From the NCBI GenBank assembly GCA_000004985.1, contig GG738865.1: a stretch of DNA of 64,000 bases. One strand, given 5' to 3'. This stretch comes from Naegleria gruberi (taxonomy: Eukaryota). The translations under genes were made by a program, and so were the position numbers. The notes under the pieces are model-generated. The model searched no databases. It was given only the letters and a program-made list of their open reading frames with translations, and had not been told where the DNA came from. This document shows positions 1,093-39,612 of this stretch, piece by piece; position 1 is the stretch's first letter; every line of letters begins with the position of its first letter.

Positions 1093-1110
1093 ATTTTTTC
1101 CCGCCAATAA
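1093..1110. promoter_or_regulatory. E2F-like site, TTGGCGGGAAAA on the minus strand, about 90 nt upstream of the 1195 gene.
   Basis: The plus strand reads 'ttttttcccgccaataaaaa'. This is a rare GC-rich 10-mer in AT-rich intergenic DNA. Confidence 0.35.
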
Positions 1111-1194
1111 AAAAACAGTTTTATTATTCAAAAAAAAATCCTTAATGACCATCTTCCCTCATCATCCCATCACTTCCTCTGCACAACAATCATC

Positions 1195-4100
1195 ATGATG
1201 AAATCGATTAGTAACAATAAATCCAAAAGGGAACAGCAACAACGCTCAATGAGCAAATCTTTATCATCGAGTACAATATCCACCCTCCATCAACAACCAG
1301 AAAAAACAACACCCAAAAGAAGAAAATCACAAAATACAAGTCAAGCTCCTGTGCTTGTGGCAGCTTCTCTTGATGATTTTAGTCTTGCTTCTTCAACTCT
1401 TCAAAAAAATGTTCAAGACTCTATTCTAACCACAACTCCATCAACAGTACCAACACCTCTGGTTCAAGTTTCTTTATTTTCCATTCTGAATAAGAGTGGA
1501 TCTTCGGCGCCAAAATTGCCAACAATTTTCAATGATGATGAGGATGAGCAAGAGGTAGAGGAGAGTGAGAGCATAATTTCCTTCCGAAACAATGAAGAAA
1601 TTAGTCAACAACCATCCCGACCAGAATTATCAGCCGCTGAAAACACTTCCCTCTCCGAGCAACAATATTCCTCTCCTCAAATAATGTTCAAAGAATTGAC
1701 GAGGGAGAAATTATTCTCTCAAAAAACATCCCCCAAAAGACCTCTCGTAATTAAATCTTGTGCACATCCAAAGGATAGTACATTTTCCACAGTCAATTTA
1801 ATGTTGGAAAAGGTTTTAAAAATTATTGGAAACTCAAAGAAAGGAACCTTTCTCTTTTTAACAAGATCCAATATGGACTCTCGTATTATCAAGGATATCC
1901 TACTCCAACAAGTTCCTGACCAGATGAAGGATATTAAAGTCATGTCATTTCACACCTTCTCCAGTACCATCCTTAAAAAGGCAGGAAAACCATATGGAAA
2001 TTCTGGATTTAAGATCATTTCCAATGAGGATACTAGATTTTGTTTGAGTAAGGTATTGGAACATAATGATAAAACCAACTCTCTTAAGGAATTATCAATG
2101 GATGTGGAGGGTATTCAGAATTTTATTGAAGCTCTCAAACTGGAAATGAAAACTCCAGACATGCTCCTCCGCGAAATCATTTCACAACACCAAAGAGATT
2201 CAGTCAATGGAGAGAGAAGAAAGTTAATGTTGCTGCAAAATATTTACAGTGAATATGAAAATCTGAAAATGCAAAGTAAGAGTTTGGATTTTACAGATTT
2301 ATTATTGCAATGTCATACTCTCCTGACAAATCCATCATCTGAAACTCTCTCCAACATTGGGCTATCGAATAGATCTGATCTTTATATTCTAATTGATGAT
2401 TTTGAATTGTTAGATCTTCCTCAACATACTCTTTGTAAAGATATTATTTATTTGATGAGTCAAACTCAACAGACATCCATCAAGAGTGTATTGCTAGGAA
2501 CTCAAAAATTGGATTGTGATAATTTGGCTAATTTAAAGCAAACTTTTATGGATCCATTTAGTTTTGATATTTTCAATTTTGATTCTATTGAAGATCAAAT
2601 GAAAGAGACAAAGATCGCAGCCCATCATATACCAATTGAATCAACAAATATATTTGATGATCTCAAATCAGGAGAGTTAGTTTGGAGGTACATTTCTATT
2701 GAAGGGAAAATATTGGATGAAAAAACTTTGCATACAGTCGTTTCAAGATTTGCCGTTAAGGGATTTGAAAAGAATGAAAATGAAACCATCAGTGACATTC
2801 CAACAGAGACAATTCAAATAAGTCCAGAGACTAGTGAGCTTATCTTCCAAAGTGACTCCCTTTCTACCCCAATAGGTGCTGCTGACTATCTGACTGCTCC
2901 ACAAAAAGTATGCAATATTTATTTGGAGTTTTCCTCGAAGAAGGAACAAATGGAATGGTTGGCATCTATTGAAAGAGGAATCATGCTTCAACAAAAGCCA
3001 CTCAAGATGCCACCTTGTTTCAAGGACAAGTGTCAAAAGTTAGATGTAACCAAAGATCAAAAAACAACATTCCAACCCAAGATTAGAATCAATAGGGAAA
3101 AGATTAGAGATATGGTCTATTACAGGCACTCAATATCTGAACAATTCCTCATGAAACTAGAACATGTCATCAACATAATCGAGCAACATATTAACAAGAG
3201 TGCCAAAGCAGCAATTGGAGACGATGTTCCTCTCAAGAATTTAGTAATGAGTAGAATATTCAAGCAACTTGGACAAGAAACACCTGACCAGATAATTATT
3301 GTGGATTTGAAATTGGAGGATTTTTGTCAAGAATGGGAAAAGGATTGGAAGAATTCTTTATTATGGGGTGAAAAGGTAACAGAGCCTTCAACCTCTGAAA
3401 AACTCATGAAATCCATTGCCGAGACTTTATCAAAACTTGGTCAAGAATGTGAAGAAACAACAACACCGATAGTATTGGAAGAAAGTCTTGAAGAGAAAAT
3501 CGAACAAACATCTATGATTGAGGAGCAACCAAAAGAAGAATTTAACAACATGGAAGAGGAGGAAGACCAGATTATCAGTGATATTGTCTCACCAAATTTT
3601 AAAACTCCAAACAATGTCTCCTCTCTTGATGCTCTCATTTCTTCTGCCAACACTGAAAATCCAATGACCATTGAGCAATTGGCTTCGTCAGTTATTGATG
3701 AGGAAATTTATGTTTCTCCTGACAGACAACCATCAAGGGATAGTACTCCACCAAAATCCACTGAAAAAACTCCAAATCAAACAACTATTACTCTTGAACC
3801 AATAAGTACAAACTACTCGAATTATGATGCTAGATCCATTCTGGATCATTTCAGAAAGACACTTTCCACCCAAAAAATCGAACCAACAAAAACACTAGTC
3901 CCCCAAGACAATAAGAAACAACTTATAGAAATTGATTACGAGATGAATAGACTCCTGAATGCCACTCAAGAACACGTCATGCTCGACGACTCTGCCTATG
4001 CCTTTGATTCATCGAAACCACAACTCGACATTACATTCAATAATCAATCGGCATTGAACATGACTGATATTTCTCAAAAACCACTCTTTACACCAACCAA

Positions 4101-4764
4101 GCCATCCTCAAACTTGGCCAAACTTAGAGAGCTAACCTCTCCAAACTCTCCAAGCACTGTATTTTCTAGTATTGTTTCCAAATCTCTTTCCAAAAAGTTA
4201 ACTTCTCCACCTCCTAAAACAAGTCCTTCAATAACCCCTTCGAGAGCTGAACGAAGAAATGCCAAACTTGTTCAAGTCAAATCTGGTTCACCAAGTAAGA
4301 TTATTCAAGTAATTAAAACTCTCAAAACTGGTGTGACCATATATAAACACTCATCGAGTGGAACCTCTAAGAAGAAACTTGTCCACCTATTCCTCTCTGC
4401 AGACGAGAACTTTGTTTGCTATGTGAAACCAGAGTCGAGAAATATTGTCCCTCTCTATGAAATTAAATCCAAATTCCCAGTATCTTCGATCAGATATCTC
4501 CAAAAGGGAGAACTTGTTAAGAAGAGAAGACTATTGGAAATTAAGGGTGGTATTGCAAGTACCTTATTAGGTATCAAGAAGGAGGAAATGAAAGTCGATT
4601 CAACTGTTCTCTTTTCCTTCTGTCTCCCAGAGAGGTATTTAGATTTTGAAGCCAAATCAATAATTGAGTGTCAAACATGGTTTGACATGTGGGAATACTT
4701 TGTAGCAGCTATAGCTAAAAATCAAGCCGAAAAGCAGGTTGAAGAACCAAGTGTTTCTCAATAA
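1195..4764 (+). CDS. Large (1189 aa) low-complexity protein with two PH-like domains, one central and one C-terminal. The N-terminal region has weak UvrD/Rep-like helicase motif similarity without an intact Walker A.
   Basis: The ATG at 1195 was verified. PH-like segments are 'GELVWRYISIEGK...EQMEWLASIERGI' and 'VTIYKHSSSG...CQTWFDMWEYFVAA'. The N-terminal 'GTFLFLTRSNMDSRI', 'VMSFHTFSSTILKK' and 'YILIDDFELLD' resemble UvrD motifs Ia, Ib and II. Where GxGKT would be expected the sequence reads 'SCAHPKDSTFS'. S/T/P-rich tracts are present. Confidence 0.5.
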   Translation: MMKSISNNKSKREQQQRSMSKSLSSSTISTLHQQPEKTTPKRRKSQNTSQAPVLVAASLDDFSLASSTLQKNVQDSILTTTPSTVPTPLVQVSLFSILNKSGSSAPKLPTIFNDDEDEQEVEESESIISFRNNEEISQQPSRPELSAAENTSLSEQQYSSPQIMFKELTREKLFSQKTSPKRPLVIKSCAHPKDSTFSTVNLMLEKVLKIIGNSKKGTFLFLTRSNMDSRIIKDILLQQVPDQMKDIKVMSFHTFSSTILKKAGKPYGNSGFKIISNEDTRFCLSKVLEHNDKTNSLKELSMDVEGIQNFIEALKLEMKTPDMLLREIISQHQRDSVNGERRKLMLLQNIYSEYENLKMQSKSLDFTDLLLQCHTLLTNPSSETLSNIGLSNRSDLYILIDDFELLDLPQHTLCKDIIYLMSQTQQTSIKSVLLGTQKLDCDNLANLKQTFMDPFSFDIFNFDSIEDQMKETKIAAHHIPIESTNIFDDLKSGELVWRYISIEGKILDEKTLHTVVSRFAVKGFEKNENETISDIPTETIQISPETSELIFQSDSLSTPIGAADYLTAPQKVCNIYLEFSSKKEQMEWLASIERGIMLQQKPLKMPPCFKDKCQKLDVTKDQKTTFQPKIRINREKIRDMVYYRHSISEQFLMKLEHVINIIEQHINKSAKAAIGDDVPLKNLVMSRIFKQLGQETPDQIIIVDLKLEDFCQEWEKDWKNSLLWGEKVTEPSTSEKLMKSIAETLSKLGQECEETTTPIVLEESLEEKIEQTSMIEEQPKEEFNNMEEEEDQIISDIVSPNFKTPNNVSSLDALISSANTENPMTIEQLASSVIDEEIYVSPDRQPSRDSTPPKSTEKTPNQTTITLEPISTNYSNYDARSILDHFRKTLSTQKIEPTKTLVPQDNKKQLIEIDYEMNRLLNATQEHVMLDDSAYAFDSSKPQLDITFNNQSALNMTDISQKPLFTPTKPSSNLAKLRELTSPNSPSTVFSSIVSKSLSKKLTSPPPKTSPSITPSRAERRNAKLVQVKSGSPSKIIQVIKTLKTGVTIYKHSSSGTSKKKLVHLFLSADENFVCYVKPESRNIVPLYEIKSKFPVSSIRYLQKGELVKKRRLLEIKGGIASTLLGIKKEEMKVDSTVLFSFCLPERYLDFEAKSIIECQTWFDMWEYFVAAIAKNQAEKQVEEPSVSQ

Positions 4765-5727: not shown

Positions 5728-5747
5728 ATAAACTAAATATTTCACTC

Positions 5748-8700: not shown

Positions 8701-9905
8701 ACTGGATGACTTGAAGAAAAACTTGAATTTAATGGAGGTATAGGAGGTACACAATACACCAACTCAACAATTTTATCGTTCAAGCCATTGATTTTTTCCT
8801 CAAACGATATCTTTTCATTTTCAAATTGTTGTTTTTCCTCCTCCAGATTTGTGATTGTTTCTTCTTTTGATTTCAACTCATTTTCCAATTCCCTAAGTTT
8901 CTCTTTGTTTTCCTCCTCTATAATTGATAATTTTTCCTCCTTTGATTTTAATTCGCTCTCCATTTCCTTAAGCTTTTCCTTCAACTGAGAACATTTTTCG
9001 ACAATGTTGCAAATCTGCTCCTCTTCCTTTTCCTCTTCCTCACTAATATGTACATTTTCATCGAACATAAAATCTTTTGAAGGTAATTCCTGTAGAGATT
9101 CATTAGTGTATGATTCCCCATGGTTGGATGGAGATGTGAGTTTGTTTGGTGTAATGTTAGAAGTGAAATTCAAGAGTTTTGTCAACTCTTCTTCATCTGA
9201 AAAATCTCCATCATTAATATTTGGGATATCGATATGAATAGGAGTTTGTGAAATAGAGGAAGAACCTAGAATGAAATCCAATGGTTTTGACCTCCTTTCA
9301 GAATGATAGAAAAATGGACTGTTTGAGTTTGTTACTCGATTATTTGATGGTTCTGTTGTTGGTGATACATTTCTCCTGATTACTATTTTAGTTGAGCCAT
9401 GAAGATTGGTAGGAGTTTTGTTAGACTTGTTCAATTCACTCTCCAAGGTCACATTTCCATTAGAGTCTGTTGGGAGGGAAATATAAGGATGCAGATATCC
9501 ACAACCACAACGAGCATGAGAAACTTTGGTTCCTCTTGGAAAGAATCTTTTGAAAATGTTTTTAACCTCAGTTTCCTGTAATTCATCTAGGGAAATAGAT
9601 CCATCCTTTTGATTCATTTGTGATGATGATTGTTGATGATGGTTTGGTTCCTTCTTCGATTGAATGATGGTAGAAAATGTATTTTCATTATTCCGAGATA
9701 ATACAATTGGTTTAGATTTGGATTTGTTGCATAGAGAGTGTTTGATATTCTCTGTTGTTATATTATGTAAATGTAAATGTTTTGATGAGGGTGCAAATGT
9801 TCTATTACTATTTAATGAACCAATATTAAGTGGAGGTATTCTCACTTCATGCTCCGTTGATATTTTGTGTTTTTTCAATTCCAAATATTCCTCAGATGAA
9901 GCCAT
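5748..9905 (-). CDS. Very large (1385 aa) coiled-coil protein, golgin/myosin-tail-like, with E/K/L/Q-rich heptad sequence. The N-terminal region is Cys/His-containing.
   Basis: The ATG at 9903-9905 (minus strand) was verified. About 1000 aa are of continuous coiled-coil character (ELKSKEE..., LEKELNEAR...). No motor or enzymatic domain was recognised. Confidence 0.6.
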   Translation of the reverse strand: MASSEEYLELKKHKISTEHEVRIPPLNIGSLNSNRTFAPSSKHLHLHNITTENIKHSLCNKSKSKPIVLSRNNENTFSTIIQSKKEPNHHQQSSSQMNQKDGSISLDELQETEVKNIFKRFFPRGTKVSHARCGCGYLHPYISLPTDSNGNVTLESELNKSNKTPTNLHGSTKIVIRRNVSPTTEPSNNRVTNSNSPFFYHSERRSKPLDFILGSSSISQTPIHIDIPNINDGDFSDEEELTKLLNFTSNITPNKLTSPSNHGESYTNESLQELPSKDFMFDENVHISEEEEKEEEQICNIVEKCSQLKEKLKEMESELKSKEEKLSIIEEENKEKLRELENELKSKEETITNLEEEKQQFENEKISFEEKINGLNDKIVELVYCVPPIPPLNSSFSSSHPVADSKEEDVPQSKEESVQADHNLLNLTNDESTNTDLEVKEASTQVQTSTNEAPTQTYIPVSNTSENSTNTETEQKTIAETPVQCSIFEEEKPLVDEELLKERDGQIQQLLDKLAEKEEAVEKLITENQTLVEERDFISQNISYGIDANKKVLELLEKELERIKNEMQTQSDDFERERKILENEIETLQNQDTKNQEATTNKITDLEKELNEARTVVELMTAEVNKANESSTKLTKDLEEIPIHKQNLEDDLEAERKKYEELLETLQERIDEDNNNKNVIANTSQQVKLMNSELEALKKMLEEKEEIVEDLEGKLTESQQNVEDLLSTKQEAAESTFEQLEGQNAQIESLLDEVKDKDDEIYSLRAELVQQQKQLNGVEEKLQDKEKQFNIKCKEITQLGRDIDILKDTLNGKSDSENEQIKRLEERNLDLENSLNEMEEELKQIEERKELEKQEFDEERSRLEELLENYSHEIKNKESIMADLEKENTEVKSLLDIKDSTIDEYSSRLEQLDEENEKLKEQLKAIEKDLEQIQRKNNDLQNQLSSGDDEINSKLERSLDGCERYKALLDESNQEVESLNNEILVLKIQVEDYKLTIDTIREDLKSQGDNQELLNQIDQLEKNIEKKENTISEKEREIQKSKEELDRFMETYNIYKERAETEITHFQEQISSSFNELQEKNDLISNLQSLLAKQQLEHDREMQNANQVLNSLQESLSNNALNIERLNKEKEALEKSLMTKSQNSAVESRELNDLRRENYDLKRQFDENRQSNEKMQQEVERLLEQLTKGGGPPSSVEGSPEMASKTPTHRNGKFSAIIQTTPLSPNTTVDLWKQLRSEILRLKQKNVELAQQIMQVNKSKEETISKYEKELRKTQLDISKYRKIEVDFEKQKTQLMQVEEYGRKLEENNTLLNNHLKQLEYEKSNLLRLQEQTKSELQQLKDNLETLTAENQRLIKAEKKRNLGDKVQPPTSLLPTTNSISNKKK

Positions 9906-10348
9906 CTCTTTTGATGATTTTAATTGCTTAGGTTTACGATTTGCCGCTTTTTTTTTTAAATTTAAAACAAAACCTCAGTTAACATCAAGATTATGCTTTC
10001 AACAGGACATTGGACAAGCTTAATAAATAGAAATCCAGCACTACAATATTTTAGCGATAAAACGACTTTTCACCTCACAGCCATTCAATACCAGCAGGTC
10101 AATATTTAATTAATTAAGGGAAAATTGGATAGGGAAGAAAGTATTAAGAATCAATGGTATTCCTCAGATTTATTTAGTCGAATGAAAAGTGACATCTCCA
10201 CTTGCATTTACGTGTGTAAGTCTGCATAGCAATTCCTCATAATTTTGGAACTATTTTTTTCACGCTATTATTTATTATTTAAATATTTACAAAGATTACA
10301 ATGTTAATCTCACAACAATTAAAAGGAAATTAAATTTCATTCATATTT

Positions 10349-10744: not shown

Positions 10745-10888
10745 TACTTTTTTGACCAATTGACTGATTTAGTAATTATGAAAATAGAAAATATATAATT
10801 ATATCTTTTTTGGACAACCCTATAATGCAAGTTCAATTACAATCAAATTGGATATATATGAATAAACAACCCAAAAAACTCCCAACAT

Positions 10889-17924: not shown

Positions 17925-20900
17925 TTATTTGGATGTGAGAGAGGATGGTAGGTAGAATTTCAGAGAAGGAATGGTAACTGATGAATTATCAAGTAGGGAT
18001 CTTCCAGTAATTTGCAAGAGTACAAAATCGTCATCTGAATTGAAAGCATTGAAATTCACCCAAAGTTGGACCAATTTAGAGCTCATTCTCTGATTCAATG
18101 GAGATACAGTAGAGAATACAAATTGAAAATTGGAATAGATTGAGTAGGAATTGCCAGATGCATTGGAATCTTTCAATTCTATAGAAAGAGTTTCACATGA
18201 GTATTTTTCCTTCATCATGTCAACAATATCCTTAATTGTAAAGTCTTGTCTTTCATTTGCATTGTTAAGTTCTAAAAGATCCCATTCTGTTACAGAAATA
18301 GTTTCATTTCCTGTATTAAGGGAAAAGCTTTGTGTTCTCAAATGTAAGTATTTAAAAAAATCTGTTGAATACTTTCCACTACAATCTATTGAATAACTGG
18401 GGAATTGTTCACCTTTCATAGGAGATTCTTGTACAAGCTTTCCAATAATTGTTAAAAGTATTGTAACAATCAAACACATACCTTGTAATATTGTAAAGTT
18501 GCATATCCAGCAGTTATTGAATTACTAATTGAATTGCTAGGAGTCAATCCAACCACTCTCTTAATATAGTGTTTATCCACTATTGGTGGAATTTTATAGC
18601 ATTGAGCTCTAACTAGAGCACATGCTTGAACGAAATCCAAATGTAAATCATTGTAAGGATCAAAAGTAATGAATTCAATATTCAATTGGTTCAATATTGT
18701 TTCAATTTTTTCTTTCAATGTTTCTTCAGAAAGTTCAGAATCAATTTTTTTCATTCCCAAATCTTCTTCTTTCAAAACTTTGGCTAATATTTCTTTCAAT
18801 TCTTCCATATTTGGTAAATCAACTGAATAAACCTTGGATCTCAAAATAGCACTATATAGAACAAAATCCAAGTGAGAGGCATTGATAGCATTGAAAGGAA
18901 CAGGAACTGGTCTTCTCATTCTAGCCAAATATTCAGGTAAAGTGCCATTCCTCATGAATGGAGCAAAATATGTTTCTAATATTTCACTAATTCCCTTATC
19001 GAAATATTCATTGAATTTGACAACTGCCCATCTTATGCTATTTTCAAAATGGCAAGGATTGTATAGAACAATATCAGTGTACTTGTCTCTGAAATCACCA
19101 AATGGGCCTAAATGAATGAGTAAATTATCCTTATACATTTCTTTGAAAGGATAGTCAATTGAGAAATTTATCATATCCTTCATGGAGCCATAATAATTGA
19201 TTATTTGTGGATAGGATACTTCGTTACTCTCCCTAACATGCTTTCCACTCAAGTGTGGAATCATTAAAGTGACATTTCCTTTCATACATTCACTTGTGGC
19301 AAAAATTGCTCTTTTGGTAGAATTAATGACACGAGAAACAATTAAATCAGCAATTGGTTTTCCAGGAACTGTGCACGTATATCCACTATATTGATCCAAA
19401 TTATTCCAAGAAAATTGTTCCTCTTCTTCATTCACTGGTCTTGCTCTCGCATATTCTTCAACCATGTCAATTTTCATTTGAGGATTAATGTGATTTTTCA
19501 CGTAGTCTATTGCGAGCATGGACTTGATATTGGCAAACTTACTTATATCCTCCTCTATAATGAATGGATGTGTTATGAGATTTGGTAAGATGGCCTCCTT
19601 GGCATCGACAAGAGTTGTGGATGGAGCTTCTTCATGAGAACTGAGACCCATCAGGGCATAATTCTTCAAACATTCCCATCCTAATCCACCCATTCCAAAT
19701 ATTACCTCATTAGATTTCATTATTTTTGATTGTAATGTTTTACCAATCAAGTTAATTTGTTGTTGAAATCTTTTCATTTTGTGTGGAATGTTAACACAAT
19801 CTTCGTGAGTTGGAAGAGGACTTGGCAGGCAATCCCATGCATCTAAACATTCCCATTGATCAATTATTGGAAAGTAATACATACTCAAATTCTTGAGAAT
19901 TTCCATCACAATGAAAGCTCCCGTGATGCTTGTGAATGGAGCTGACCTTCCTTGACATGTGAAAGCAAGGGTTTTGCAAATTTCTTGATTGAAGAATTGG
20001 TTTGGAATTCTATCTTTTGCAAATTGCACAAATTCTAAAGCATCTTGCTCATGGTAAGGTTTTGGAATTTTTCCATTCTCCCTTTCGAATAGTTCAAGTT
20101 GAGTGAAAGCATGTCTCTTCTCTACCTTCGTCCTTGAATCCGAATCTTTAAATGTTGGATTATCCAACTCTTCTTTAAGTGATTTAAGCTTGTGAGATCT
20201 TATATCTAGACCAGTAACATTACATTTCATGAAATAAGCTGAGCCATCCCCCAATTCGAATTTTCCAAAATTAGTAGAATCCAAATCTACAACCACTCGA
20301 TTTCCAATCTTTGATTTGATTCTAACCGCCTTGTGTTCATTCAATTCCGTCATTCCCCTAACATTTCTAAAGACAATATTTTGATGAACATTCATTCCCT
20401 CTTCCTTATTAAATTCATCATCTAAAAGATCAATTTTTGTTGGGTTTCCATTGATGATATCCTTAATTGAACAACCTTCTTTGAAGCCAGGGTTCAGATC
20501 TTTGATTTTGTGTTCGCCCATATCATAGAATATTAAACATGATAAGCCCTTCATGTCGGATGCCACGAATTTAATATTATTATCGTGACAGGTTTGAGCC
20601 AAATCAATCAGTGATGAAAGAGAATGTTCAGTACAAATAATAAAATCAAACTCTTTCAAAAACTGCACATCACCTGCCAAGCTGTCAACTTGACCATCTT
20701 TCACATTAATTTGTGCAAATGGATTCAATCCATTCAACACAATCATTGCTCTCTCCGCTCTATTTCTTCCAATCACTTCTACCTCCTTCGAATCGGCAAC
20801 AATCGAATAAAAATCTGCCAAATCCTCATACGAAACCATCTTTGAATCCATCAGTGTTAATTGTTCAATTCCATTTTGGAGTAAATTCTTTGCCACTTCC

Positions 20901-21022
20901 AATCCAAGTCCTCCCATTCCACACACCAACACTCTACACTTATTGAAGGTTGTGATTTTATCCTCTGGCCACCACGTATGCACCAATGTATCATAGAATT
21001 GCTGTTTGGTTAGTGTCGACAT
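17925..21022 (-). CDS. Ubiquitin-like modifier-activating enzyme E1 (UBA1/UBA6-like). Two exons, approximately complement(join(17925..18437,18482..21022)).
   Basis: There are two ThiF/MoeB folds: 'VLVCGMGGLGLEVAKNLLQNG' and 'VIFGMGGLGWECLKNYALMG'. 'KGNVTLMIPHLS' and 'NPCHFENSIRWAVVKFNEYF' match UBA1 'KGNVQVVIPFLT' and '[27 protein letters not shown]'. The C-terminal UFD-like exon is joined through a 44-nt intron (AAG|GTATGT...AAAG|CTT). The true ATG is at 21020-21022. Confidence 0.65.
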
Positions 21023-21046
21023 TTTTTTTTCTTTTGAAAAGTCGCA

Positions 21047-21063
21047 CACTTTTGGCGGGAAGA
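21047..21063. promoter_or_regulatory. E2F-like site, TTTTGGCGGGAAG, about 30 nt upstream of the E1 gene ATG (minus-strand gene).
   Basis: 'cacttttggcgggaagatg'. Confidence 0.35.
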
Positions 21064-21396
21064 TGTTTAACATTGTTTTACAATCAAATTGCTTTATTCT
21101 CTGTTATTTATTAGTATTGAATATCAAAGGTGAAATAAAGAGAATAGAAGGGAGAATAAAGGCGCCTTCTCACTACAGCTTTGTCAAAAAAGCTTATTTG
21201 GAATGGATAAATGTAAAAAATTTGTGCTTGTGGTGTAATGCATACAATCAAATTGTAGTGGCTGTCTTTGTTTCACTTTTCATCATTATTAACATGTCAA
21301 ATTCACAATGATTAATGACATTTTGATCAAACAATTCTCATAAAAAAACTTTACAAAGGTTCAATTATTCGAGAATTTACAAAACTCAAAAAAAAA

Positions 21397-23532
21397 ATGT
21401 CCTACTCATCTGAAGAAGATTATCAAGAAGAAGAACCTTTTTCCTCCTCATCACCATCATCACCATCATCATCCTCTTCTGGAGACGAAGAAGAAGAATC
21501 AACAGATGATCGATATGTGAGAGCGGAGGGTAATAATCCAAAGAGAAAAAACCTAAATGTCACCAGCAATAGCAGTAGCAGCAATATGAATTTTATTCAA
21601 AGCAATTTTAATGATCATCATTATATTTATCCTGATTCTGATCTAAATTATGGTTTTTTTCTTAATACTACTGCTAATAGAAGAAGTAGTAGTAGTATCA
21701 GTGGTGGTGATAAGAAGAATGGAGCAGCTGCATTTACATTTACTGCATCGGGACAACCGTTTGGAATTTCTGGTGGTGGTCTTGGTGGTGGTGATCAAAC
21801 TCTAATTTCCTCATCAAATTCAAATAGTTTTTCTTCATCAAATTCAACTCCGTGTGGTGGTTTCAAGTTTGATGATACTTCTAAAGTCCTGTTTAGTCAA
21901 CAAAAACCAATATTTGGTTCTTTTAATACTTCTCAGCCTTTTGGTACTAATAGTGGTGATGATCATCAAGCTACTAACAATTCAAATAGTTCAAATACTA
22001 ATAATGCATCATCCACTTCATCATTGGCAGCATCGGAAGAGAAATTATTTGTCTTTGGAAGTGTTCCATCATCCTCATCCACTTCATTAAGCCACTCACC
22101 AACAAAGACAATGCATAGAAGAGGCATAAATGTTGCATCCAAGAATAGGAATGAAAATATTGATAACATATTCAATTCATTGCCAAAACCTCCTACTTTT
22201 GGTTATCAACAAGCAGTTGATCAAAAAGATAGTACCACTGGTGATTCTTTATCAGAGATGAGTCAGTCCTTGTATAGTATTTTGAGAATGGCTAAAGTGA
22301 AGGGAGTTACCACTAAAATATCTGAACTCAAATCAAGAAAGGAACCGAGAAAATATCAAATCAAATCCTATCCAAGAGATTTAATATTGGAAGGTGGAAT
22401 GTTGCAAGTTTATGCATTTAAGCCACTATTGAAAATTGTTGCTCCTAATTTTTGTAAGAATGTCATTTGTAATGAACCATTATTGCATAGATTGGAAAGT
22501 AAGGAGATTGAAACATTGAATTTCTTCATATACATGATCTATTCGAAATCATCCTTTACAAATTTCAGCTTGTTTCCAAGCTTACCATTTTTGGTGTTTT
22601 TAATGGACGTGAGTAAGGAAGATTTTCTGCAACAGAAGAGCTACTTTATTAGTCAACTTGGCTTTGTTTATTTGAATACCAAAAACGCTGTGGACATTCT
22701 AGTGGGAACTGACAAGTACATTGCATTAAGAAACGAACTGTTCACAGAGGATATTTCTCTTAAATTTTTAGATCAAGTCAGAATCACTTGCTTGGAGTAT
22801 ATTGGAGCCAATTCGTCGTGCAAAGAATTTGATTACAATCAAGATCCAAGAGTGAAAGATTATGTATTGGAATTCTACAGATATAAGCATGTGACCCGTG
22901 ATATTGTGCCACCTTTTCAAACACCAGTCGTCATTGGAGGCATTAACATTATCTATAACTTTAAAGAGGACAGTGATGCTGTGGTGAAAATTCCTGATTC
23001 TCTGGGAGGAGTCAAAACCATATATTGTCACAAGACTGTGCTCTCCAGTGCTTCTGAAATGTTGGAAGTAAATTTTGGACCCAATTGGAGCAATGAAGAG
23101 GATGAAGACGGAAGAGCCATCATCAATGTTGAACATCTCATTGAAGTTGCCTCAGATCCAAGTGTAATGGAATTTATTATCGAGTATGCCTATGGAATTT
23201 TTGCACCAATCAAGGTTTCTTCCAAGCAAGTAATTCCACTCATTAAGGCTGCACATTTCTATAGAATTCAGGGCCTTCTCGATGAGTGTCTCTACTTGTG
23301 TGTGAATAGGGACAAGCTCTCCTTTTTCGAAGTGGCCGAATCTCTAGAGGATCATTTCGAAGACGAAACCATGGAAGCTTTTGAGGATGTTATGGTAGAA
23401 ATTGGAACTGCCAATTACCCCTTCATTATTGGAGCAAGTGATGAAGAATTAATGAAATTGCCAAAGAGAATGCTTATTAAGATGTTCAGAAAGATTTACA
23501 AAACATACATTCCAAATATCAAAACCTTGTAA
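21397..23532 (+). CDS. Protein with an S-rich/FG-repeat N-terminal region and one or two C-terminal BTB/POZ domains.
   Basis: FG-type repeats are present ('PFGISGGGLGGG', 'PIFGSFNTSQPFGTNSG'). A BTB-like block reads 'KTIYCHKTVLSSASEMLEVNF...IEYAYGIF...LIKAAHFYRIQGLLDECL'. The ATG at 21397 was verified. Confidence 0.55.
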   Translation: MSYSSEEDYQEEEPFSSSSPSSPSSSSSGDEEEESTDDRYVRAEGNNPKRKNLNVTSNSSSSNMNFIQSNFNDHHYIYPDSDLNYGFFLNTTANRRSSSSISGGDKKNGAAAFTFTASGQPFGISGGGLGGGDQTLISSSNSNSFSSSNSTPCGGFKFDDTSKVLFSQQKPIFGSFNTSQPFGTNSGDDHQATNNSNSSNTNNASSTSSLAASEEKLFVFGSVPSSSSTSLSHSPTKTMHRRGINVASKNRNENIDNIFNSLPKPPTFGYQQAVDQKDSTTGDSLSEMSQSLYSILRMAKVKGVTTKISELKSRKEPRKYQIKSYPRDLILEGGMLQVYAFKPLLKIVAPNFCKNVICNEPLLHRLESKEIETLNFFIYMIYSKSSFTNFSLFPSLPFLVFLMDVSKEDFLQQKSYFISQLGFVYLNTKNAVDILVGTDKYIALRNELFTEDISLKFLDQVRITCLEYIGANSSCKEFDYNQDPRVKDYVLEFYRYKHVTRDIVPPFQTPVVIGGINIIYNFKEDSDAVVKIPDSLGGVKTIYCHKTVLSSASEMLEVNFGPNWSNEEDEDGRAIINVEHLIEVASDPSVMEFIIEYAYGIFAPIKVSSKQVIPLIKAAHFYRIQGLLDECLYLCVNRDKLSFFEVAESLEDHFEDETMEAFEDVMVEIGTANYPFIIGASDEELMKLPKRMLIKMFRKIYKTYIPNIKTL

Positions 23533-26857: not shown

Positions 26858-27239
26858 TTGATCATTACAAAAGTAACTGCTGAAGGATTGAAATACCTCA
26901 CTAAATTGGAACAATTGACTGACCTGGATGTTTCTTCATGCAATATTCGACATGAAGGAGCCAAAGTCCTTAGTGAAATGGCTCAATTAAAAACACTCGT
27001 CTTGCAAGACTGTAATATTGGAATGGAAGAGACTAGAAATAAGCTAGCTTACCCAATTGACTTCACTCAATATTCATAGTAATAATATTGGTGATAAGGG
27101 AGCCGAATCAATCACTACTAAACTAGAAAATCTTACAATTCTCGATATTAGTTTTAGAGAATTTAATGAAGAAATTAAGAAATCCATTTATTCAATGAAG
27201 AATTTAACAATAATCAATAATAATAGTATCATTGATTAA
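26858..27239 (+). pseudogene. Frameshifted fragment of an RNI-like leucine-rich-repeat gene.
   Basis: Two short ORFs in different frames (26858..27079 and 27057..27239) encode LRR units. These are 'LDVSSCNIRHEGAKVLSEMAQLKTLVLQDCNIG' and 'LNIHSNNIGDKGAESITTKLENLTILDIS'. They closely resemble the repeats of the intact LRR gene at 27865..29052. No start codon or upstream coding continuity is present. Confidence 0.3.
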
Positions 27240-30375: not shown

Positions 30376-32649
30376 TCATTTGAACTCTTCGTCAACGAAT
30401 ATAGAAAAGTGGCTAGCAGGTTTTGAAATTGAAGCACCAATTGGTTGCAACATCCCCAACATCATGTCATCGTTTTGTTGTGGTAGTGAGTAATTTGTCC
30501 ACTTGTCAGGTTTCTCATTATTTTCCTTTTCTTGCTCTTGTTCACTTGTCAAGAATCGAGGTCCCATAGATGTTAGTTCTTTTGGAATTTGGAAAGGTAG
30601 AGTTCTAGTTGTGGCGGCATGGGCAATCTTTTCAGCACTTCCATTCGATTCATCATAAATCACAAAGTTATTAATTGGTGAATTCTTCTGAGAGAGACTG
30701 GCATTGCTATTTTTCATTTTAGTTGGTTTCATGGAAGGAATTGGAGGTCCTGATCTTAGGGGTCCACTGGGTATGGCAGTTGTTGGTCTTATTGAGGTTG
30801 GTTTCTTGGCTAGGCTATTGAAAGGTAATCTCTGGTTGTTGGAATCAGTAGCACTCTGCGGGTTGTGTCCTCCAATCATTGGTGGTGCTGTTTGAATTGT
30901 TGAGCTTGCCATGGTTGTTGAGGAAGTGGATGAGGCAGTCCTGTTTAGAATACTCTTCATGAAACGAGCCTTCACACCAGTGTGGAAAGTTTGTAGAGAT
31001 TTTGCAGGTTGAGCTCCTCTATTGATACCCTGTTCAAGAACAGCATCAGCTGCTTTCAAATCCTTTCGATCTTCCAATAGGGTGGCCCATCTAATGTACA
31101 GTTCAGAATGATTGAGACAAATCTTTTTAGACTCCAAAAATGTAAAGACATCAATTGGGTCCAAACACTGGTCTGCATATTTGAGCCAAACTCCCAGATA
31201 TCGTTCATCATTCCTATATCTTTCCAATAATTGTTGATTGGAGAGAATAAACTTTGTACATGCTTGCAGAGTTGGAACGTATTGAGAAGCCTTACTAAGT
31301 GTTGGATAACTCTTTTCAATCCACTCTACATATTCCAACCAAACAGTGATTGGATCTAAATGATTCGACAAGGATGCAATTCTCTTCTCAAATTGTTTTC
31401 TCTCCACTGAAAGTTTTGGTTTCATATTGTGATTATCAAAGCACACCTTTGATTTGGTGAGATTGGAAAAATTGAAATGTGGCTTTCCTTGTTGTGGTAT
31501 TGGACTGGCATCTGTCATGGCACAATCATCCTCCCCAGGTGCTGATAATGCCACAATTGTGTTAAATCCATTAAAACTACTATTCATACACGAGGTTGGT
31601 GAAAACATTCCAGTAGGAGACATTGGAGTCGAGCAAGCATTCACATTATTCGAAGCAGTCATGAGTGGATTGAAAGATGTAGAGCTACTGCTACCATTAA
31701 ATGATGTACAAAGGGTTGGTGGACTCTGGAGTGATGTAGACACAGAACCACTTCCAGGTAGCATGATTGGCTGGAGTGGCTTAATTTCCTGTAAAGGTTG
31801 TTTACCAAATATTCTCCTCAAATCAGTGGCCTTTCTACCACCTTTCAGAGGAATGATATTCTCCTTTGCAGCTTCAAATTCCTCAAAATCAACAATGACC
31901 CTTTCCTCTGTTGATGTTGGTTGTTGTGTTGAATCTTGAATTCCACTTTGATTGTTATTATTATGAGTATTAATGGCAATTGGAGATTGGAAACTATTAG
32001 AAGGTGAAACACTCAAAGATGGAAAACCCTGATTATTGGAGGAGGTAATAATTGAGGAAGGAGAGCAACTAGTCGATGGTGATGAATACACCGAAAAGGT
32101 CATACTATTCACAGTAGGTGAAGAACTCAAACCAAAGGATTGTTGTGGTGAGGATGACAATGAACCAATTTGATTATTATTATTAGTACTTGGAATATCT
32201 AGCAAGTTATTCCCATTAGTAGGCATCATGAGCATTTGATTTCCACTACTAAAACCTAATTCATTTGTATTAATTGTATTATTATTAATTGTATTAAAAG
32301 ATGATGAAGGAAAAACAAGATTAGGCTTTGATAAACTTCTACTCGGACGATTCATCAAGAGACCAGGGGCAGAACTACAACTCGTCAATGATGATCCAAC
32401 ATTGCTAATAGTATTAGTTGGTGATGGATTAACACTGGAGGAGGAAGGCTTTGATAATCTCAAGCCATTGTTGGATGATGGAAACGAGACGGAATTAGTG
32501 GGGAGTGTGATGGTGGGAGTTCCTAGGCGTTGAAAGGAGGATGGTCTGATCAGTGATGCTGGAGGCGGTTTATTGTTTGATGAAGCTTGCTGTTGATTGA
32601 TTGAAGAAGGGAGAGTAGGAGGGAATCGCAAGCGTTGACTTTCAAACAT
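30376..32649 (-). CDS. Mad3/BubR1-like spindle-assembly-checkpoint protein. It has a KEN box and the Mad3/BUB1 homology region 1 (TPR), and no kinase domain.
   Basis: 'WLEYVEWIEKSYP...YRNDERYLGVWLKYADQC.DPIDVFTFLESKKICLNHSELYIRWATLLEDRKDLKAADAVLEQGINRGAQP' matches the BUBR1 TPR region 'YHNDPRFISYCLKFAEY...PLYIAWAGHLEAQGELQHASAVLQRGIQNQAEP'. A KEN box 'FEAAKENIIPLKGG' lies upstream. The N-terminal approx 250 aa is S/N-rich. The ATG at 32647-32649 was verified. Confidence 0.65.
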   Translation of the reverse strand: MFESQRLRFPPTLPSSINQQQASSNNKPPPASLIRPSSFQRLGTPTITLPTNSVSFPSSNNGLRLSKPSSSSVNPSPTNTISNVGSSLTSCSSAPGLLMNRPSRSLSKPNLVFPSSSFNTINNNTINTNELGFSSGNQMLMMPTNGNNLLDIPSTNNNNQIGSLSSSPQQSFGLSSSPTVNSMTFSVYSSPSTSCSPSSIITSSNNQGFPSLSVSPSNSFQSPIAINTHNNNNQSGIQDSTQQPTSTEERVIVDFEEFEAAKENIIPLKGGRKATDLRRIFGKQPLQEIKPLQPIMLPGSGSVSTSLQSPPTLCTSFNGSSSSTSFNPLMTASNNVNACSTPMSPTGMFSPTSCMNSSFNGFNTIVALSAPGEDDCAMTDASPIPQQGKPHFNFSNLTKSKVCFDNHNMKPKLSVERKQFEKRIASLSNHLDPITVWLEYVEWIEKSYPTLSKASQYVPTLQACTKFILSNQQLLERYRNDERYLGVWLKYADQCLDPIDVFTFLESKKICLNHSELYIRWATLLEDRKDLKAADAVLEQGINRGAQPAKSLQTFHTGVKARFMKSILNRTASSTSSTTMASSTIQTAPPMIGGHNPQSATDSNNQRLPFNSLAKKPTSIRPTTAIPSGPLRSGPPIPSMKPTKMKNSNASLSQKNSPINNFVIYDESNGSAEKIAHAATTRTLPFQIPKELTSMGPRFLTSEQEQEKENNEKPDKWTNYSLPQQNDDMMLGMLQPIGASISKPASHFSIFVDEEFK

Positions 32650-32767: not shown

Positions 32768-32850
32768 GCCCGCGTAGCAGAGTGGTCAAATGCGTAAGAC
32801 TTAAGATCTTATCCCGAATGGGTTCGTGGGTTCGAACCCCACCGCTGGCA
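32768..32850 (+). tRNA. tRNA-Leu, anticodon UAA.
   Basis: A cloverleaf was read by eye. The anticodon stem is TAAGA/TCTTA with loop CTTAAGA. There is a long variable arm. The T arm is GTGGG-TTCGAAC-CCCAC. The acceptor has one C-U mismatch. Coordinates are +/-2. Confidence 0.7.
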
Positions 32851-32889
32851 AATTAATTTTTTTCTGTTACCTAATTGACATAAGGATTT

Positions 32890-33935: not shown

Positions 33936-34016
33936 TGCAGAAGGTGGGATTTGAACCCACGAAGCTTGCGCAGTAGAACTTGAGTCTACCCCCTTTGACC
34001 ACTCGGGAACCCCTGC
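33936..34016 (-). tRNA. tRNA-Leu, anticodon CAA.
   Basis: The reverse complement folds as a Leu-type tRNA. The acceptor is GCAGGGG/CTTCTGC with two G-U pairs. The D-loop is CCGAGTGGTCAAAGG. The anticodon stem is GTAGA/TCTAC with loop CTCAAGT. There is a long variable arm. The T arm is GTGGG-TTCAAAT-CCCAC. Confidence 0.7.
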
Positions 34017-34833: not shown

Positions 34834-35430
34834 TTTTTTTTGATCAAAAACCAATTGACTAAACTTTTACAAGATCTTTTCTCTAGGCCTAATGTCATAG
34901 ACCCGACTTTTTTGTAAAGAATATTTAACTATTACAAATAAACTTTTAACGGTGCAAATTCCTCATCTCCTTCCTCATCATCTCCTCATGAAAATCAATC
35001 CCATCATCTCCTCTCCATAATTATCACAAAAATTCGCCTGCATCATGCTGATTCGTTCACTCACAAATTTTAATAATAAAAAAATATTAAAAAAAATTTG
35101 CACAACAGTTGTTGCTGCTTTTTCATTTTGAATTTTTTGTATATTTTGTGTGTGATTAAGTGTCATATATAGCGCGTGGAGAGTTTATTGAATACATATA
35201 ATAATATACTAGTATTGAGTGTGTTGCTCTCACGTTCGTCTTCGGATCATCATTAGCGCTAGTATCTTCCCCGAGACAAAATTTTCTTCCATCACCATCA
35301 TCATTATTTATTTTCTAAATATTATATAATTCATATATATTGCATATAATATATTTATTTAATATTCACTTTTAAAATTGTAACGTATAGAGTAAAATAG
35401 CAACCAACATAACAAGTTTTTGAATACACA

Positions 35431-37658: not shown

Positions 37659-37833
37659 TAAATATTAAAGTGTATATTATCTATATTATGATATTTTGAA
37701 TGATTCAAATTCAATTACAATAAAGGAATAATTAAAATCTTGACAATGACTTTATAAACTACTATACAACCTAGTGTCCTTAGATGAAAAATAAATATCA
37801 AAATTGAACTCTTTGTAATTTAGGGATATCGCT

Positions 37834-39557
37834 CTACAGAATCAATTCGTGTTGCTGTGGTTGGGATGAGAGAATTTTAAATCTATCACGTTCTCTTTCC
37901 AATTCGAAAATTCTTCGTTGTAATTGTTGCTTCTCAGTTATGGAAGCTTGTTGGATGGAAGACATGCCTGTCTCTGCTTGTAGCAATTGTTCATTCAAAT
38001 CTTCAACTTGTCTCTGGACAGAATAAACCTTTGATCGATAGGCTTCCTTAATTTTCTTTGCTTTGGCAGCATACCTTTTAGCAATCTCTTTAGCAGCCAG
38101 CAGATCTTTCAATAATTTTTCCACCCTAACATTAGAATCTGTGTGTTTGTGTTTCAGCGTATCCATATCTAGTTTAATATCGGCAATGACCTTTAACAAG
38201 TGATTATTCTTATCGAGTTGATAGTCTCGTTCTTCTCTAAATGCCTGTGCTTCAGCTCTTACGCTTTCAGATTCTTTCCTCAGTCTGGCAATTTCATTAG
38301 TGAGTTCTTGAACATCGTGTTGACTTCTCTTTTCCTTTGAGAGTAAATCTTGTTTTAACTCATTCTTTTCAACTTCAAGTTGTAAATACTTTTCAGTTTC
38401 CTTTCTAAGTGCTTCATGAAGTCTCTCGTTTTCCTTAATGTGAATCTCGTAGGATTGTGTTACCAATTCTTGCTTGGCTTGTTGGAGATCTTCCACCCTC
38501 TTGTTCAATTCAGAAACCTTATTTGCCCAAATGTTTCTATCTCTCTCGTATTCTCTTTCTCTTTGAAGTTGATTGGCCTTGTAGGATGTTCGTTCTGAGG
38601 CAAACTGTTTTTCTGTTTCATCCAATTTGCTCTTTGTTGTGGTTAATTCCTTTTCGAGTTTTAAAATTTGATCGTGCATCTTGTCATTACTTCTGGTAAT
38701 TTCTTCAAGTTCTGCTTGAAGTCTTTCACATTTCTTTTGGAGTCTTTCGTGCTGTGTCTCTGCTGTTCTAACTTTGGAGACCAACTCGGCATGTTTCTGA
38801 TTATTCATGAGGTTGGATTGTTCTCTGGATGAAACAGCTTGCGCTTTTTCTTCTCTTACTTCATGTAGTTCGGAAAGTAGTTTTTTGATGCTTATTGACA
38901 TTTCTTCCTTTTCTTCTTCAAGGCGTTTTACTTGGAGAATCTCCTTAGATGTTTTCATCTGAATGTTCTGATCGTTTAATTGCATGATGAGCTCTTGAAC
39001 ACGATCTTCATAGTCACCCTTCATTTCATCAAATCTCTTCTCTGCCATTTTGAGTTTTTGTGTTAATTCATTCTTGGTTAGTTCGTATTCTCTTCTCAGA
39101 TCCGAATACATTTCACGAAATTTATCATTCTCATCGATTTCCCTCTCCAGACGATGTCTCAACTCCAATTCTTCCATTAATTTCATTTTCATTTGTTGAA
39201 GCTCTTGAGTATCCCGATCAAATTGATTTCGTAAGGACTCGAATTCCTTAGTTTTCTTTTCCAATTGATTTTTCCATCTCAAGTGTTGTTCATTGTTTTG
39301 ATTGTACAAATCCAGATATTCTCTTTTTAACTATTATTATTGTTGTGATGATGATAATTTTAATAATTATAATAATAATAAATTAATAATTTGCCAAAGT
39401 CATGATGATGTAAACAACTTCCGTGATGCTGCCTAATACAACTTACATTATCAAAATTTCTTTGGTAGGTATCATTCTCTGTTCTTAATCGCTGAAGTGA
39501 GAGTTGAACATTCCTATCGTCGCCCTCACGTACCGACGTTGAGGTTGTAGAGTGCAT
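37834..39557 (-). CDS. Coiled-coil protein of about 535 aa. Two exons, approximately complement(join(37834..39330,39447..39557)).
   Basis: Exon 1 'MHSTTSTSVREGDDRNVQLSLQRLRTENDTYQRNFDN' starts at a verified ATG (39555-39557) and ends at a GTAAGT donor. A 116-nt intron ends ...AATAATAG. Exon 2 begins 'LKREYLDLYNQNNEQHLRW...' in phase 0. The ORF-track 'M' at 39309 is a TTG. The remainder is E/K/R/L/Q coiled coil. Confidence 0.55.
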
Positions 39558-39595
39558 TTTTTTAAACTTAACGGCTTAATATTTTTTAATGGGTT

Positions 39596-39612
39596 ACAAT
39601 TTCGGCGGGAAG
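39596..39612. promoter_or_regulatory. E2F-like site, TTTCGGCGGGAAG, about 40 nt upstream of the coiled-coil gene ATG (39557, minus strand).
   Basis: 'caatttcggcgggaagtttttt'. Confidence 0.35.

What the first reader, a model, noticed from the sequence alone, without database searches (positions are those of the whole stretch)
1093..39612. Three E2F-type TTGGCGGGAA elements in promoters
Three sites were found: TTGGCGGGAAAA (1093..1110, minus-strand orientation), TTTTGGCGGGAAG (21047..21063) and TTTCGGCGGGAAG (39596..39612). Each lies 30-90 nt upstream of a start codon. The genes are a helicase-motif/PH protein, the ubiquitin E1, and a 535-aa coiled-coil protein. The ggcggg/cccgcc core was found only at these three places in the window. 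The match to the canonical E2F site (TTTSGCGC / TTTGGCGGGAA) suggests these genes are cell-cycle (G1/S) regulated.
Basis: partly seen in the sequence, partly recalled or inferred. Interest (0 to 1): 0.5.

Follow-up and report, generated by a model that had tools for sequence, protein, structure and literature searches.

The report
E2F-type promoter sites in Naegleria
Three short promoter motifs in this Naegleria gruberi region match the binding site of the cell-cycle factor E2F and are probably real E2F sites, which is an expected feature of this organism, not a new kind of element.

Summary
The window is Naegleria gruberi NEG-M nuclear DNA. The three sites are real. They share TTCCCGCC[A/G]A[A/T] and hold the only GGCGGG cores in 64 kb.

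The 6-mer count is not unusual (3 found, 1.65 expected). The 8-mer is enriched (3 vs 0.2 window-wide; 3 vs 0.027 in intergenic DNA). It is the top non-repeat 8-mer in an unbiased intergenic scan. All three sites read TTCCCGCC on the coding strand of the next gene, 31-89 nt before its ATG.

TTCCCGCC is the published E2F7 ChIP-seq motif, and TTGGCGGGAA is the E2F2-DP1 SELEX optimum. N. gruberi encodes E2F, DP, a DEL (E2F7/8-like) protein and RB. The E2F recognition helix matches human E2F4 except one residue, and the DP helix is near-identical to human DP2.

In N. fowleri and N. lovaniensis the DEL gene, a classic E2F target, carries two E2F-type sites in its roughly 300-340-bp upstream region.

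So "E2F-type elements" is well supported. G1/S regulation of these genes is untested. The genes are an orphan helicase-like protein, a divergent E1-like enzyme and a coiled-coil protein. The Mad3/BUB1 gene in the window has no such site. Verdict: a new member of a known kind, of modest interest.

The parts
1097..1108 (+). Site 1: TTTCCCGCCAAT. It lies 89 nt upstream of the ATG at 1195 and 98 nt downstream of the stop codon of the Sec14-like gene.
   Evidence: It matches TTTSSCGC at 8 of 8 positions. It is unchanged in a second N. gruberi haplotype or strain (L006).
21050..21061 (-). Site 2: TTCCCGCCAAAA as read on the minus strand. It lies 31 nt upstream of the ATG at 21022 of the E1-like gene and 336 nt from the ATG of the divergent BTB gene at 21397.
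   Evidence: Caveat: an in-frame ATG at 21073 would place this site inside the coding sequence. The run of A directly before 21022 matches the usual start context in this window.
39600..39611 (-). Site 3: TTCCCGCCGAAA as read on the minus strand. It lies 46 nt upstream of the ATG at 39557 of the 535-aa coiled-coil gene.
   Evidence: The gene model was confirmed by an exact match to NAEGRDRAFT_48696. The site is unchanged in the second haplotype (L003).
9940..9947 (+). Candidate fourth, weaker E2F-type site: TTTGCCGC. It lies 34 nt upstream of the ATG at 9905 of a 1385-aa minus-strand ORF and is antisense to that gene.
   Evidence: It matches TTTSSCGC but not TTCCCGCC. Its status is uncertain.
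1195..4764 (+). Gene downstream of site 1: NAEGRDRAFT_48687, 1189 aa. It has a partial UvrD-helicase N-terminal domain and no detectable orthologues.
17925..21022 (-). Gene downstream of site 2: a divergent E1-like (ThiF, SCCH, 4HB, FCCH) enzyme of about 1017 aa. I infer a 44-nt intron at 18438-18481.
   Evidence: The annotated model was not recovered.
37834..39557 (-). Gene downstream of site 3: NAEGRDRAFT_48696, a 535-aa coiled-coil protein with an intron at 39331-39446. An orthologue exists in Willaertia magna (56% identity), and there are distant relatives in a chytrid, an ichthyosporean and Spironema.
30376..32649 (-). Negative control: the Mad3/BUB1 homology gene (NAEGRDRAFT_66972) has no E2F-type site in its 240-nt upstream region. 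That region instead holds a tRNA-Leu gene.

Best explanation
The three elements are binding sites for Naegleria E2F-family factors. The candidates are the E2F-DP heterodimer (NAEGRDRAFT_54558 with NAEGRDRAFT_50903) and/or the two-domain DEL (E2F7/8-like) protein. The sites sit just upstream of the transcription start of the gene that follows each one.

By analogy with animals and plants, the RB-family protein would bind the E2F C-terminus and repress these promoters. CDK activity would relieve that repression. DEL would act as an RB-independent repressor at the same sites.

Shown here:
- the motif is present, locally enriched, promoter-proximal and in a fixed orientation;
- the factors exist and their DNA-contact residues are conserved;
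- the same kind of site occurs at a canonical E2F target promoter in two other Naegleria species.

Inferred, not shown: actual binding, the direction of regulation, and cell-cycle timing.
For: 1. Motif identity. TTCCCGCC is the predominant E2F7 ChIP-seq motif (PMC3333892). TTGGCGGGAA is preferred by E2F2-DP1, and TTTTTGGCGGGAAAA by E2F8 (PMC4686757). TTTCCCGCC is the commonest E2F site in Arabidopsis, and TTTGGCGGGAAV is an over-represented upstream motif in Cryptosporidium (PMC3734150).

2. Enrichment. The 8-mer occurs 3 times against 0.21 expected. In intergenic DNA it occurs 3 times against 0.027 expected and is the top non-repeat 8-mer.

3. Position. All three sites are in sense orientation, 31-89 nt from the ATG. 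The chance of that placement for three sites is 1.75e-5.

4. Factors. NgruE2F, NgruDP, NgruDEL and NgruRB appear in the Medina et al. 2016 source data. E2F and DP are exact matches to N. gruberi proteins in NCBI. NgruE2F has E2F_TDP and CC-MB domains. Its DNA-binding domain aligns to human E2F4 in the E2F4-DP2-DNA crystal 1CF7 at E = 7e-25; the recognition helix [27 protein letters not shown] differs at one residue. NgruDP aligns to DP2 in 1CF7 at E = 8e-28 and keeps RRRVYDALNVL.

5. Independent genus-level test. In N. lovaniensis the only two TTTSSCGC matches in 22.5 kb both lie in the roughly 340-bp region upstream of the DEL gene (TTTCCCGCC and TTTTGGCGC). N. fowleri has CTCCCGCC and TTTTGGCGC at the same positions. 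The block conserved between the two species begins 1-2 nt 5' of the CCCGCC core.
Against: - The sample is small: 64 kb plus 45 kb. After correction for all 8-mers, the unbiased enrichment is only borderline (about 0.1).
- None of the three genes is a recognisable S-phase or mitotic gene.
- The Mad3/BUB1 gene lacks a site.
- Matches to TTTSSCGC also occur inside coding sequence (1507, 36374, and probably L001 21638), so single matches can be chance.
- If the E1 gene starts at 21073, site 2 is coding.
- N. fowleri and N. lovaniensis are close relatives, and the whole roughly 230-bp proximal DEL promoter is conserved, so conservation there is not specific to the motif.
- No binding or expression data were available.
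Confidence: 0.6

Rival explanations
1. The sites are bound by a different Naegleria factor that happens to prefer a GC-rich core followed by GGAA. Candidates would be an unknown zinc-finger, STAT-like or other factor. In that case they mark a regulon unrelated to E2F and the cell cycle.
For: The three target genes have no evident cell-cycle role. In human c-myc, an E2F site of this sequence type appears in a paper on STAT3-dependent activation (PMC1887683, listed). That paper was not read and this rival was not examined further. The window itself encodes a C2H2 zinc-finger protein, so other DNA-binding families are present.
Against: The match to the E2F optimum extends over 10-11 positions, including the T and A flanks. 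The E2F and DP recognition helices are almost unchanged from human. The same motif sits at the promoter of an E2F-family gene in two other Naegleria species.
Confidence: 0.17
2. The three occurrences are coincidence. A GC-rich 8-mer happened to fall three times in AT-rich spacers and has no function.
For: The GGCGGG core count is not significant. Bonferroni over all 8-mers leaves about 0.1. TTTSSCGC also turns up in coding DNA.
Against: The 8-mer occurs 3 times against 0.2 expected, and no shuffle or simulation reached 3. All three sites are intergenic, in sense orientation and within 90 nt of an ATG (1.75e-5). The motif was defined in advance by an independent literature.
Confidence: 0.13
3. 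The sites are genuine E2F-family sites but do not drive G1/S periodicity. They might mediate constitutive or differentiation-linked control, for example during the amoeba-to-flagellate switch, or repression by DEL alone. Cryptosporidium offers a precedent, where E2F-like motifs are spread over many non-cell-cycle genes.
For: In C. parvum, E2F-like motifs precede genes in 163 of 200 expression clusters with no common timing. The target genes here are not replication genes. The coiled-coil protein has a Willaertia orthologue and distant relatives in a chytrid, an ichthyosporean and Spironema. That these are flagellated lineages is my own knowledge. In animals, E2F4/5 with MCIDAS drives centriole amplification (PMC12183034).
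Against: N. gruberi keeps RB, an E2F with a marked-box domain and an EGEGxxDLF-like C-terminus (resemblance to the E2F1 RB-binding motif is from my own knowledge), and cyclins A and B. A canonical RB-E2F cell-cycle module is therefore the simplest expectation. The coiled-coil family could not be assigned to any ciliary protein.
Confidence: 0.25

Closest known systems
Animal E2F/DP and E2F7/8 binding sites (TTTSSCGC; E2F7 ChIP-seq motif TTCCCGCC; SELEX optima TTGGCGGGAA and TTTTTGGCGGGAAAA)
   Same: The core 8-mer is identical, with T-rich and A-rich flanks, in a promoter-proximal position. The factor DNA-binding domains are near-identical. The E2F7/8-like gene itself carries sites, as human E2F7 and E2F8 do.
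   Different: The host is a heterolobosean amoeba with very short spacers, so the sites lie 31-89 nt from the ATG. The target genes are lineage-specific or divergent, not replication genes. Binding and periodic expression have not been shown.
Plant E2F sites (TTTCCCGCC / TTTGGCGGG, reported as the commonest E2F motifs in Arabidopsis)
   Same: The preferred sequence variant is the same. Plants also have the E2F, DP, DEL and RBR set of factors (quoting Ramirez-Parra 2003; Medina et al. 2016).
   Different: No genome-wide catalogue exists for Naegleria, and no functional tests.
Cryptosporidium parvum E2F-like upstream motifs (DTTGSCGCCH and TTTGGCGGGAAV)
   Same: This is another AT-rich, gene-dense protist genome in which the same GGCGGGAA-type motif stands out in short upstream regions.
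   Different: In C. parvum the motif is extremely widespread (2,379 genes) and no RB is present. Here it precedes about 3 of roughly 36 genes, and RB is present.

Membership tests
E2F-family transcription factor binding site | The sequence matches the E2F consensus (TTTSSCGC) or the ChIP/SELEX-derived motif TTCCCGCC / TTGGCGGGAA. | tested here: met
   All three sites match TTCCCGCC at 8 of 8 positions. Site 1 also matches TTTSSCGC at 8 of 8; sites 2 and 3 match it at 7 of 8. The reference motifs come from PMC3333892 and PMC4686757.
E2F-family transcription factor binding site | The organism encodes E2F and DP (or atypical E2F) proteins with intact DNA-contact residues. | tested here: met
   NgruE2F, DP, DEL and RB sequences are in the Medina et al. 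source data. E2F and DP are exact matches to NAEGRDRAFT_54558 and NAEGRDRAFT_50903. Pfam finds E2F_TDP and CC-MB domains. Both align to 1CF7 chains A and B with the RRIYD and RRRVYD helices intact.
E2F-family transcription factor binding site | The site is close to the transcription start of a gene. | tested here: inconclusive
   The sites lie 31-89 nt upstream of start codons in short intergenic spacers. Transcription start sites were not available, and the E1 start codon is ambiguous (21022 or 21073).
E2F-family transcription factor binding site | The motif is over-represented in upstream regions relative to background. | tested here: inconclusive
   This was met within the window, but on only 64 kb. 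The genome-wide test was impossible because N. gruberi DNA outside the window could not be fetched.
E2F-family transcription factor binding site | The motif is present at canonical E2F target promoters in the same lineage. | tested here: met
   Only one target could be examined. The DEL (E2F7/8-like) gene of N. fowleri and N. lovaniensis has two E2F-type sites in its roughly 300-340-bp upstream region. In N. lovaniensis these are the only two TTTSSCGC matches in 22.5 kb.
E2F-family transcription factor binding site | The sites are physically bound by E2F-family proteins (ChIP, EMSA or DAP-seq). | not testable with these tools
   No binding data for Naegleria were found in the literature searches.
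G1/S (RB-E2F) regulated gene | The mRNA is periodic across the cell cycle or is derepressed when RB is lost. | not testable with these tools
   A mitotic-synchrony RNA-seq data set exists (Kennard et al., PMC10802493), but its expression tables are not held. The gene identifiers were not found in any held paper.
G1/S (RB-E2F) regulated gene | The gene product functions in DNA replication, repair or cell-cycle control. | tested here: not met
   The helicase-like protein has only a partial UvrD N-terminal domain and no homologues. The E1-like enzyme is a divergent paralogue. The coiled-coil protein could not be assigned. 'Not met' here means no such function could be recognised, not that one was excluded.

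The most novel reading that the evidence does not exclude
The E2F cis-code (TTCCCGCC) and the wiring in which an E2F7/8-like repressor gene is itself under E2F control may be conserved in Discoba. [quoted passage not shown]

In Naegleria the regulon may also have been extended to lineage-specific genes: an orphan helicase-like/PH protein, a divergent E1 and a coiled-coil protein with relatives in a chytrid, an ichthyosporean and Spironema. These could link E2F to differentiation or de novo basal-body assembly, not only to S phase.
Probability: 0.12. Interest if true: 0.55.

Novelty: new member of a known kind. Interest (0 to 1): 0.3.

Why it matters
E2F, DP and RB proteins have been inferred for the last eukaryotic common ancestor from protein phylogenies (Medina et al. 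2016). Cis-regulatory evidence from the Discoba lineage is lacking. I found no paper describing E2F sites or any promoter motif in Naegleria.

If confirmed genome-wide, these sites would show that the E2F DNA code, and probably the E2F-to-DEL feedback, are conserved across most of eukaryotic diversity. They would also give Naegleria researchers a usable cell-cycle promoter element. This outcome is what specialists would expect, so the surprise value is low.

Tried and rejected
**Fetching more N. gruberi DNA failed.**
- Exact-product look-ups for five N. gruberi reference proteins found no record, and two further look-ups with my own ORF translations of the E1-like gene also found none.
- Only short contigs of a second haplotype or strain (ERZ929261) were found. 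At 98-99.5% identity they are too similar to be informative.

**Orthologous promoters could not be obtained.**
- Homologue searches with the E1 and helicase-like proteins returned no Naegleria orthologues.
- A 3,900-aa concatenated query timed out.
- The shorter concatenated query returned only the N. fowleri and N. lovaniensis DEL orthologues.
- Two metagenome scans found nothing.

**Assigning a function to the coiled-coil protein failed.** A profile search against PDB gave only generic coiled-coil hits such as myosin tails. Pfam and PDB gave nothing for it or for the 1385-aa ORF.

**Expression data were not available.** The supplementary tables of Kennard et al. and of Fritz-Laylin and Cande are not held.

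**Ideas considered and rejected.**
- A general core-promoter element: only about 3 of 36 genes carry the motif.
- A repeat or mobile element: the flanks of the three sites share nothing beyond the motif.
- Meaningful spacing: the roughly 19-20 kb intervals do not continue, as nothing lies at about 58-59 kb.
- GGCGCC at about 21161 as a second site: its flanks are reversed relative to the E2F consensus.
Full report
**Origin of the window.** Five ORFs are exact matches to predicted proteins of Naegleria gruberi strain NEG-M on an 820,293-bp scaffold. An example is ORF 1195-4764, which is NAEGRDRAFT_48687. The DNA is 31-36% G+C and gene-dense, with few short introns and six tRNA genes. The finding therefore concerns promoters of a free-living heterolobosean amoeba.

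The three elements are at the stated places:
- TTTTTTCCCGCCAATAAA, with TTCCCGCC at 1098-1105 on the + strand;
- TTTTGGCGGGAAG, with GGCGGGAA at 21054-21061;
- TTTCGGCGGGAAG, with GGCGGGAA at 39604-39611.

GGCGGG/CCCGCC occurs nowhere else in the 64 kb. That fact alone is weak, because 1.65 occurrences are expected and 22 of 100 shuffles gave three or more.

**The shared longer motif carries the signal.**
- TTCCCGCC occurs 3 times against 0.21 expected, and no shuffle reached 3. A Markov simulation gave a mean of 0.19, Poisson P about 1e-3.
- TTCCCGCC[A/G]A[A/T] occurs 3 times against 0.04 expected.
- All three copies lie in my approximate intergenic set, which is 19% of the window at 30% G+C. 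There the expectation is 0.027 (P = 3e-6).
- In an unbiased ranking of all intergenic 8-mers, GGCGGGAA is the best word that is not a trinucleotide or AT-rich repeat.
- A Bonferroni correction over all 8-mers leaves only about 0.1. The statistical case therefore rests partly on the motif having been defined independently beforehand.

**Anatomy.** Read on the coding strand of the nearest downstream gene, every site is TTCCCGCC followed by A/G-A-A/T.

| Site | Gap from motif to ATG | ATG position | Downstream gene |
|---|---|---|---|
| 1 | 89 nt | 1195 | helicase-like gene |
| 2 | 31 nt | 21022 | E1-like gene |
| 3 | 46 nt | 39557 | coiled-coil gene |

Only 2.6% of all position-and-strand combinations in the window lie within 100 nt upstream of a start codon in sense orientation. 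Given three sites, the chance that all do is 1.75e-5.

The flanks of the three sites share nothing beyond the motif, so this is not a repeat family.

The coiled-coil gene model is ATG 39557, a GTAAGT...TAG intron at 39331-39446, and 535 aa. It is an exact match to NAEGRDRAFT_48696.

One caveat concerns site 2. The E1 reading frame stays open to an upstream in-frame ATG at 21073, and if that were the real start the motif would encode Phe-Pro-Pro. I favour 21022 because it is preceded by the run of A seen before other start codons here. Neither of my E1 models matched the database entry.

**The factors exist and should recognise this sequence.**
- The source data of Medina et al. 2016 (PMC4862756) list N. 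gruberi E2F, DP, DEL (E2F7/8-type) and RB.
- The E2F and DP sequences are exact matches to NAEGRDRAFT_54558 and NAEGRDRAFT_50903.
- NgruE2F has the E2F_TDP and CC-MB domains.
- Its DNA-binding domain aligns with human E2F4 in the E2F4-DP2-DNA crystal 1CF7 at E = 7e-25. The recognition helix [27 protein letters not shown] differs at a single residue.
- NgruDP aligns with DP2 of the same crystal at E = 8e-28 and keeps RRRVYDALNVL.
- From my own knowledge, the NgruE2F C-terminus (EGEGVSDLF) resembles the RB-binding segment of human E2F1.

On the DNA side the published motifs agree:
- E2F7 ChIP-seq gives TTCCCGCC as the predominant motif (PMC3333892).
- E2F2-DP1 SELEX prefers TTGGCGGGAA, and E2F8 was crystallised on TTTTTGGCGGGAAAA (PMC4686757).
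- TTTCCCGCC is the commonest E2F site in Arabidopsis, and TTTGGCGGGAAV is an over-represented upstream motif in Cryptosporidium (PMC3734150).

**An independent test within the genus.** N. gruberi DNA outside the window could not be fetched. A homologue search did return the DEL orthologues of N. fowleri and N. lovaniensis (47% identical to NgruDEL), and their loci were retrievable. E2F7 and E2F8 are themselves E2F targets in mammals.
- In N. lovaniensis the only two TTTSSCGC matches in 22.5 kb both lie in the roughly 340-bp region upstream of DEL. They are TTTCCCGCC (sense strand, about 223 nt from the ATG) and TTTTGGCGC (80 nt from the ATG).
- N. fowleri has CTCCCGCC and TTTTGGCGC at the aligned positions.
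- The block conserved between the two species begins 1-2 nt 5' of the CCCGCC core. Upstream of it the alignment falls apart.
- These two species are close relatives and the whole proximal promoter is conserved. The conservation is therefore not specific to the motif, but the placement of E2F-type sites at this gene is what the hypothesis predicts.

**What the target genes are.**
- NAEGRDRAFT_48687 has only a partial UvrD-helicase N-terminal domain (residues 204-417, E = 5e-15). It has no solved relative and no orthologue among 5.8 billion proteins.
- The 'ubiquitin E1' has ThiF, SCCH, 4HB and FCCH matches but is only about 26% identical to UBA1 or UBA6. It is a divergent E1-like paralogue.
- The coiled-coil protein belongs to a real family. 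It has a 56%-identical orthologue in Willaertia magna and weaker relatives in a chytrid, an ichthyosporean and Spironema. No function could be assigned, because the profile hits in PDB were generic coiled coils.
- The one recognisable cell-cycle gene in the window is a Mad3/BUB1-homology gene. It has no E2F-type site upstream. Such genes are typically G2/M-regulated in animals, so this is only mild evidence against the hypothesis.
- A fourth, weaker candidate (TTTGCCGC at 9940) lies 34 nt upstream of a 1385-aa ORF of unknown function.
- TTTSSCGC also occurs twice inside coding sequence. Single matches can therefore be chance.

**Mechanism and rivals.** The best-supported reading (confidence about 0.6) is that these are functional E2F-family sites. 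They would be bound by E2F-DP and/or DEL close to the transcription start, with RB-dependent repression relieved by CDK activity. Binding, direction of regulation and timing are all inferred.

Three rivals remain:
- Another factor has a similar preference (about 0.17).
- The three occurrences are coincidence (about 0.13).
- As a refinement of the best reading, the sites are genuine E2F sites that do not impose G1/S periodicity. This is the situation in Cryptosporidium, where the motif is spread over many gene classes.

**Novelty.** I found no paper describing E2F sites or any promoter motif in Naegleria. This is a new instance of a very well known element in a lineage where it was expected from the protein repertoire. 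It is of modest interest, mainly as cis-regulatory support for an ancestral RB-E2F-DEL network.

**What remains to be done.** A mitotic-synchrony and differentiation RNA-seq data set already exists for this strain. Together with a genome-wide motif scan it would settle the question quickly.

Noticed in passing
window 10756-10765, 27053-27062, 34851-34860 (all minus strand): AGTCAATTGG occurs exactly three times, always intergenic and on the minus strand. Two copies lie 11 and 17 nt upstream of start codons (a 131-aa ORF and the 5-formyl-THF cyclo-ligase gene). The third is followed directly by GTAAG, a possible 5' splice site. It may be a start-proximal or initiator-like element.
   Followed up: partly
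window 32768-32850, 33936-34016, 42489-42559, 44071-44144, 57367-57437, 63172-63243: Six tRNA genes are scattered between protein genes: Leu-TAA, Leu-CAA, Gly-GCC, Glu-TTC, Asp-GTC and Gly-CCC. tRNA-Leu(TAA) sits inside the 240-nt upstream region of the Mad3/BUB1 gene. Two one-mismatch matches to TTCCCGCC (44079, 57374) are simply tRNA T-arm sequence.
   Followed up: partly
L003, L004, L005, L006 (ENA ERZ929261 / Logan, both run ERR1078381, labelled metagenome): A public assembly labelled 'metagenome' holds contigs 98-99.5% identical to this window. This is a second N. gruberi haplotype or strain. The differences in the aligned regions are mostly short indels, several of 3 bp. Sites 1 and 3 are unchanged there.
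   Followed up: partly
L001 9796-9815 and L002 9770-9789: In the N. fowleri and N. lovaniensis DEL promoters, the CCCGCC core is followed directly by TTTCAAA. On the other strand this reads TTTGAAA, which resembles the animal CHR element TTYGAA. That suggests a possible E2F/CHR-like composite.
   Followed up: no
window 21020-21073: The E1-like gene has two in-frame candidate start codons 51 nt apart. Neither of my two full-length models matches a database entry, so the annotated model probably differs. I also infer an unusually short 44-nt intron at 18438-18481.
   Followed up: partly
window 21022, 32649, 34833, 39557 and L001 21636: A run of 7-9 A residues immediately before the ATG is the usual start-codon context in these Naegleria genes. 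In L001 the sequence AAAAAAATGGCGCCAAAA suggests an unannotated first exon whose first codons mimic an E2F site.
   Followed up: no
window 44691-47930 and 48086-50179 (minus strand): Two adjacent genes encode protein kinases fused to TPR repeats. One also carries PB1 and ZZ domains. They appear to be a tandem pair of related multidomain kinases.
   Followed up: no
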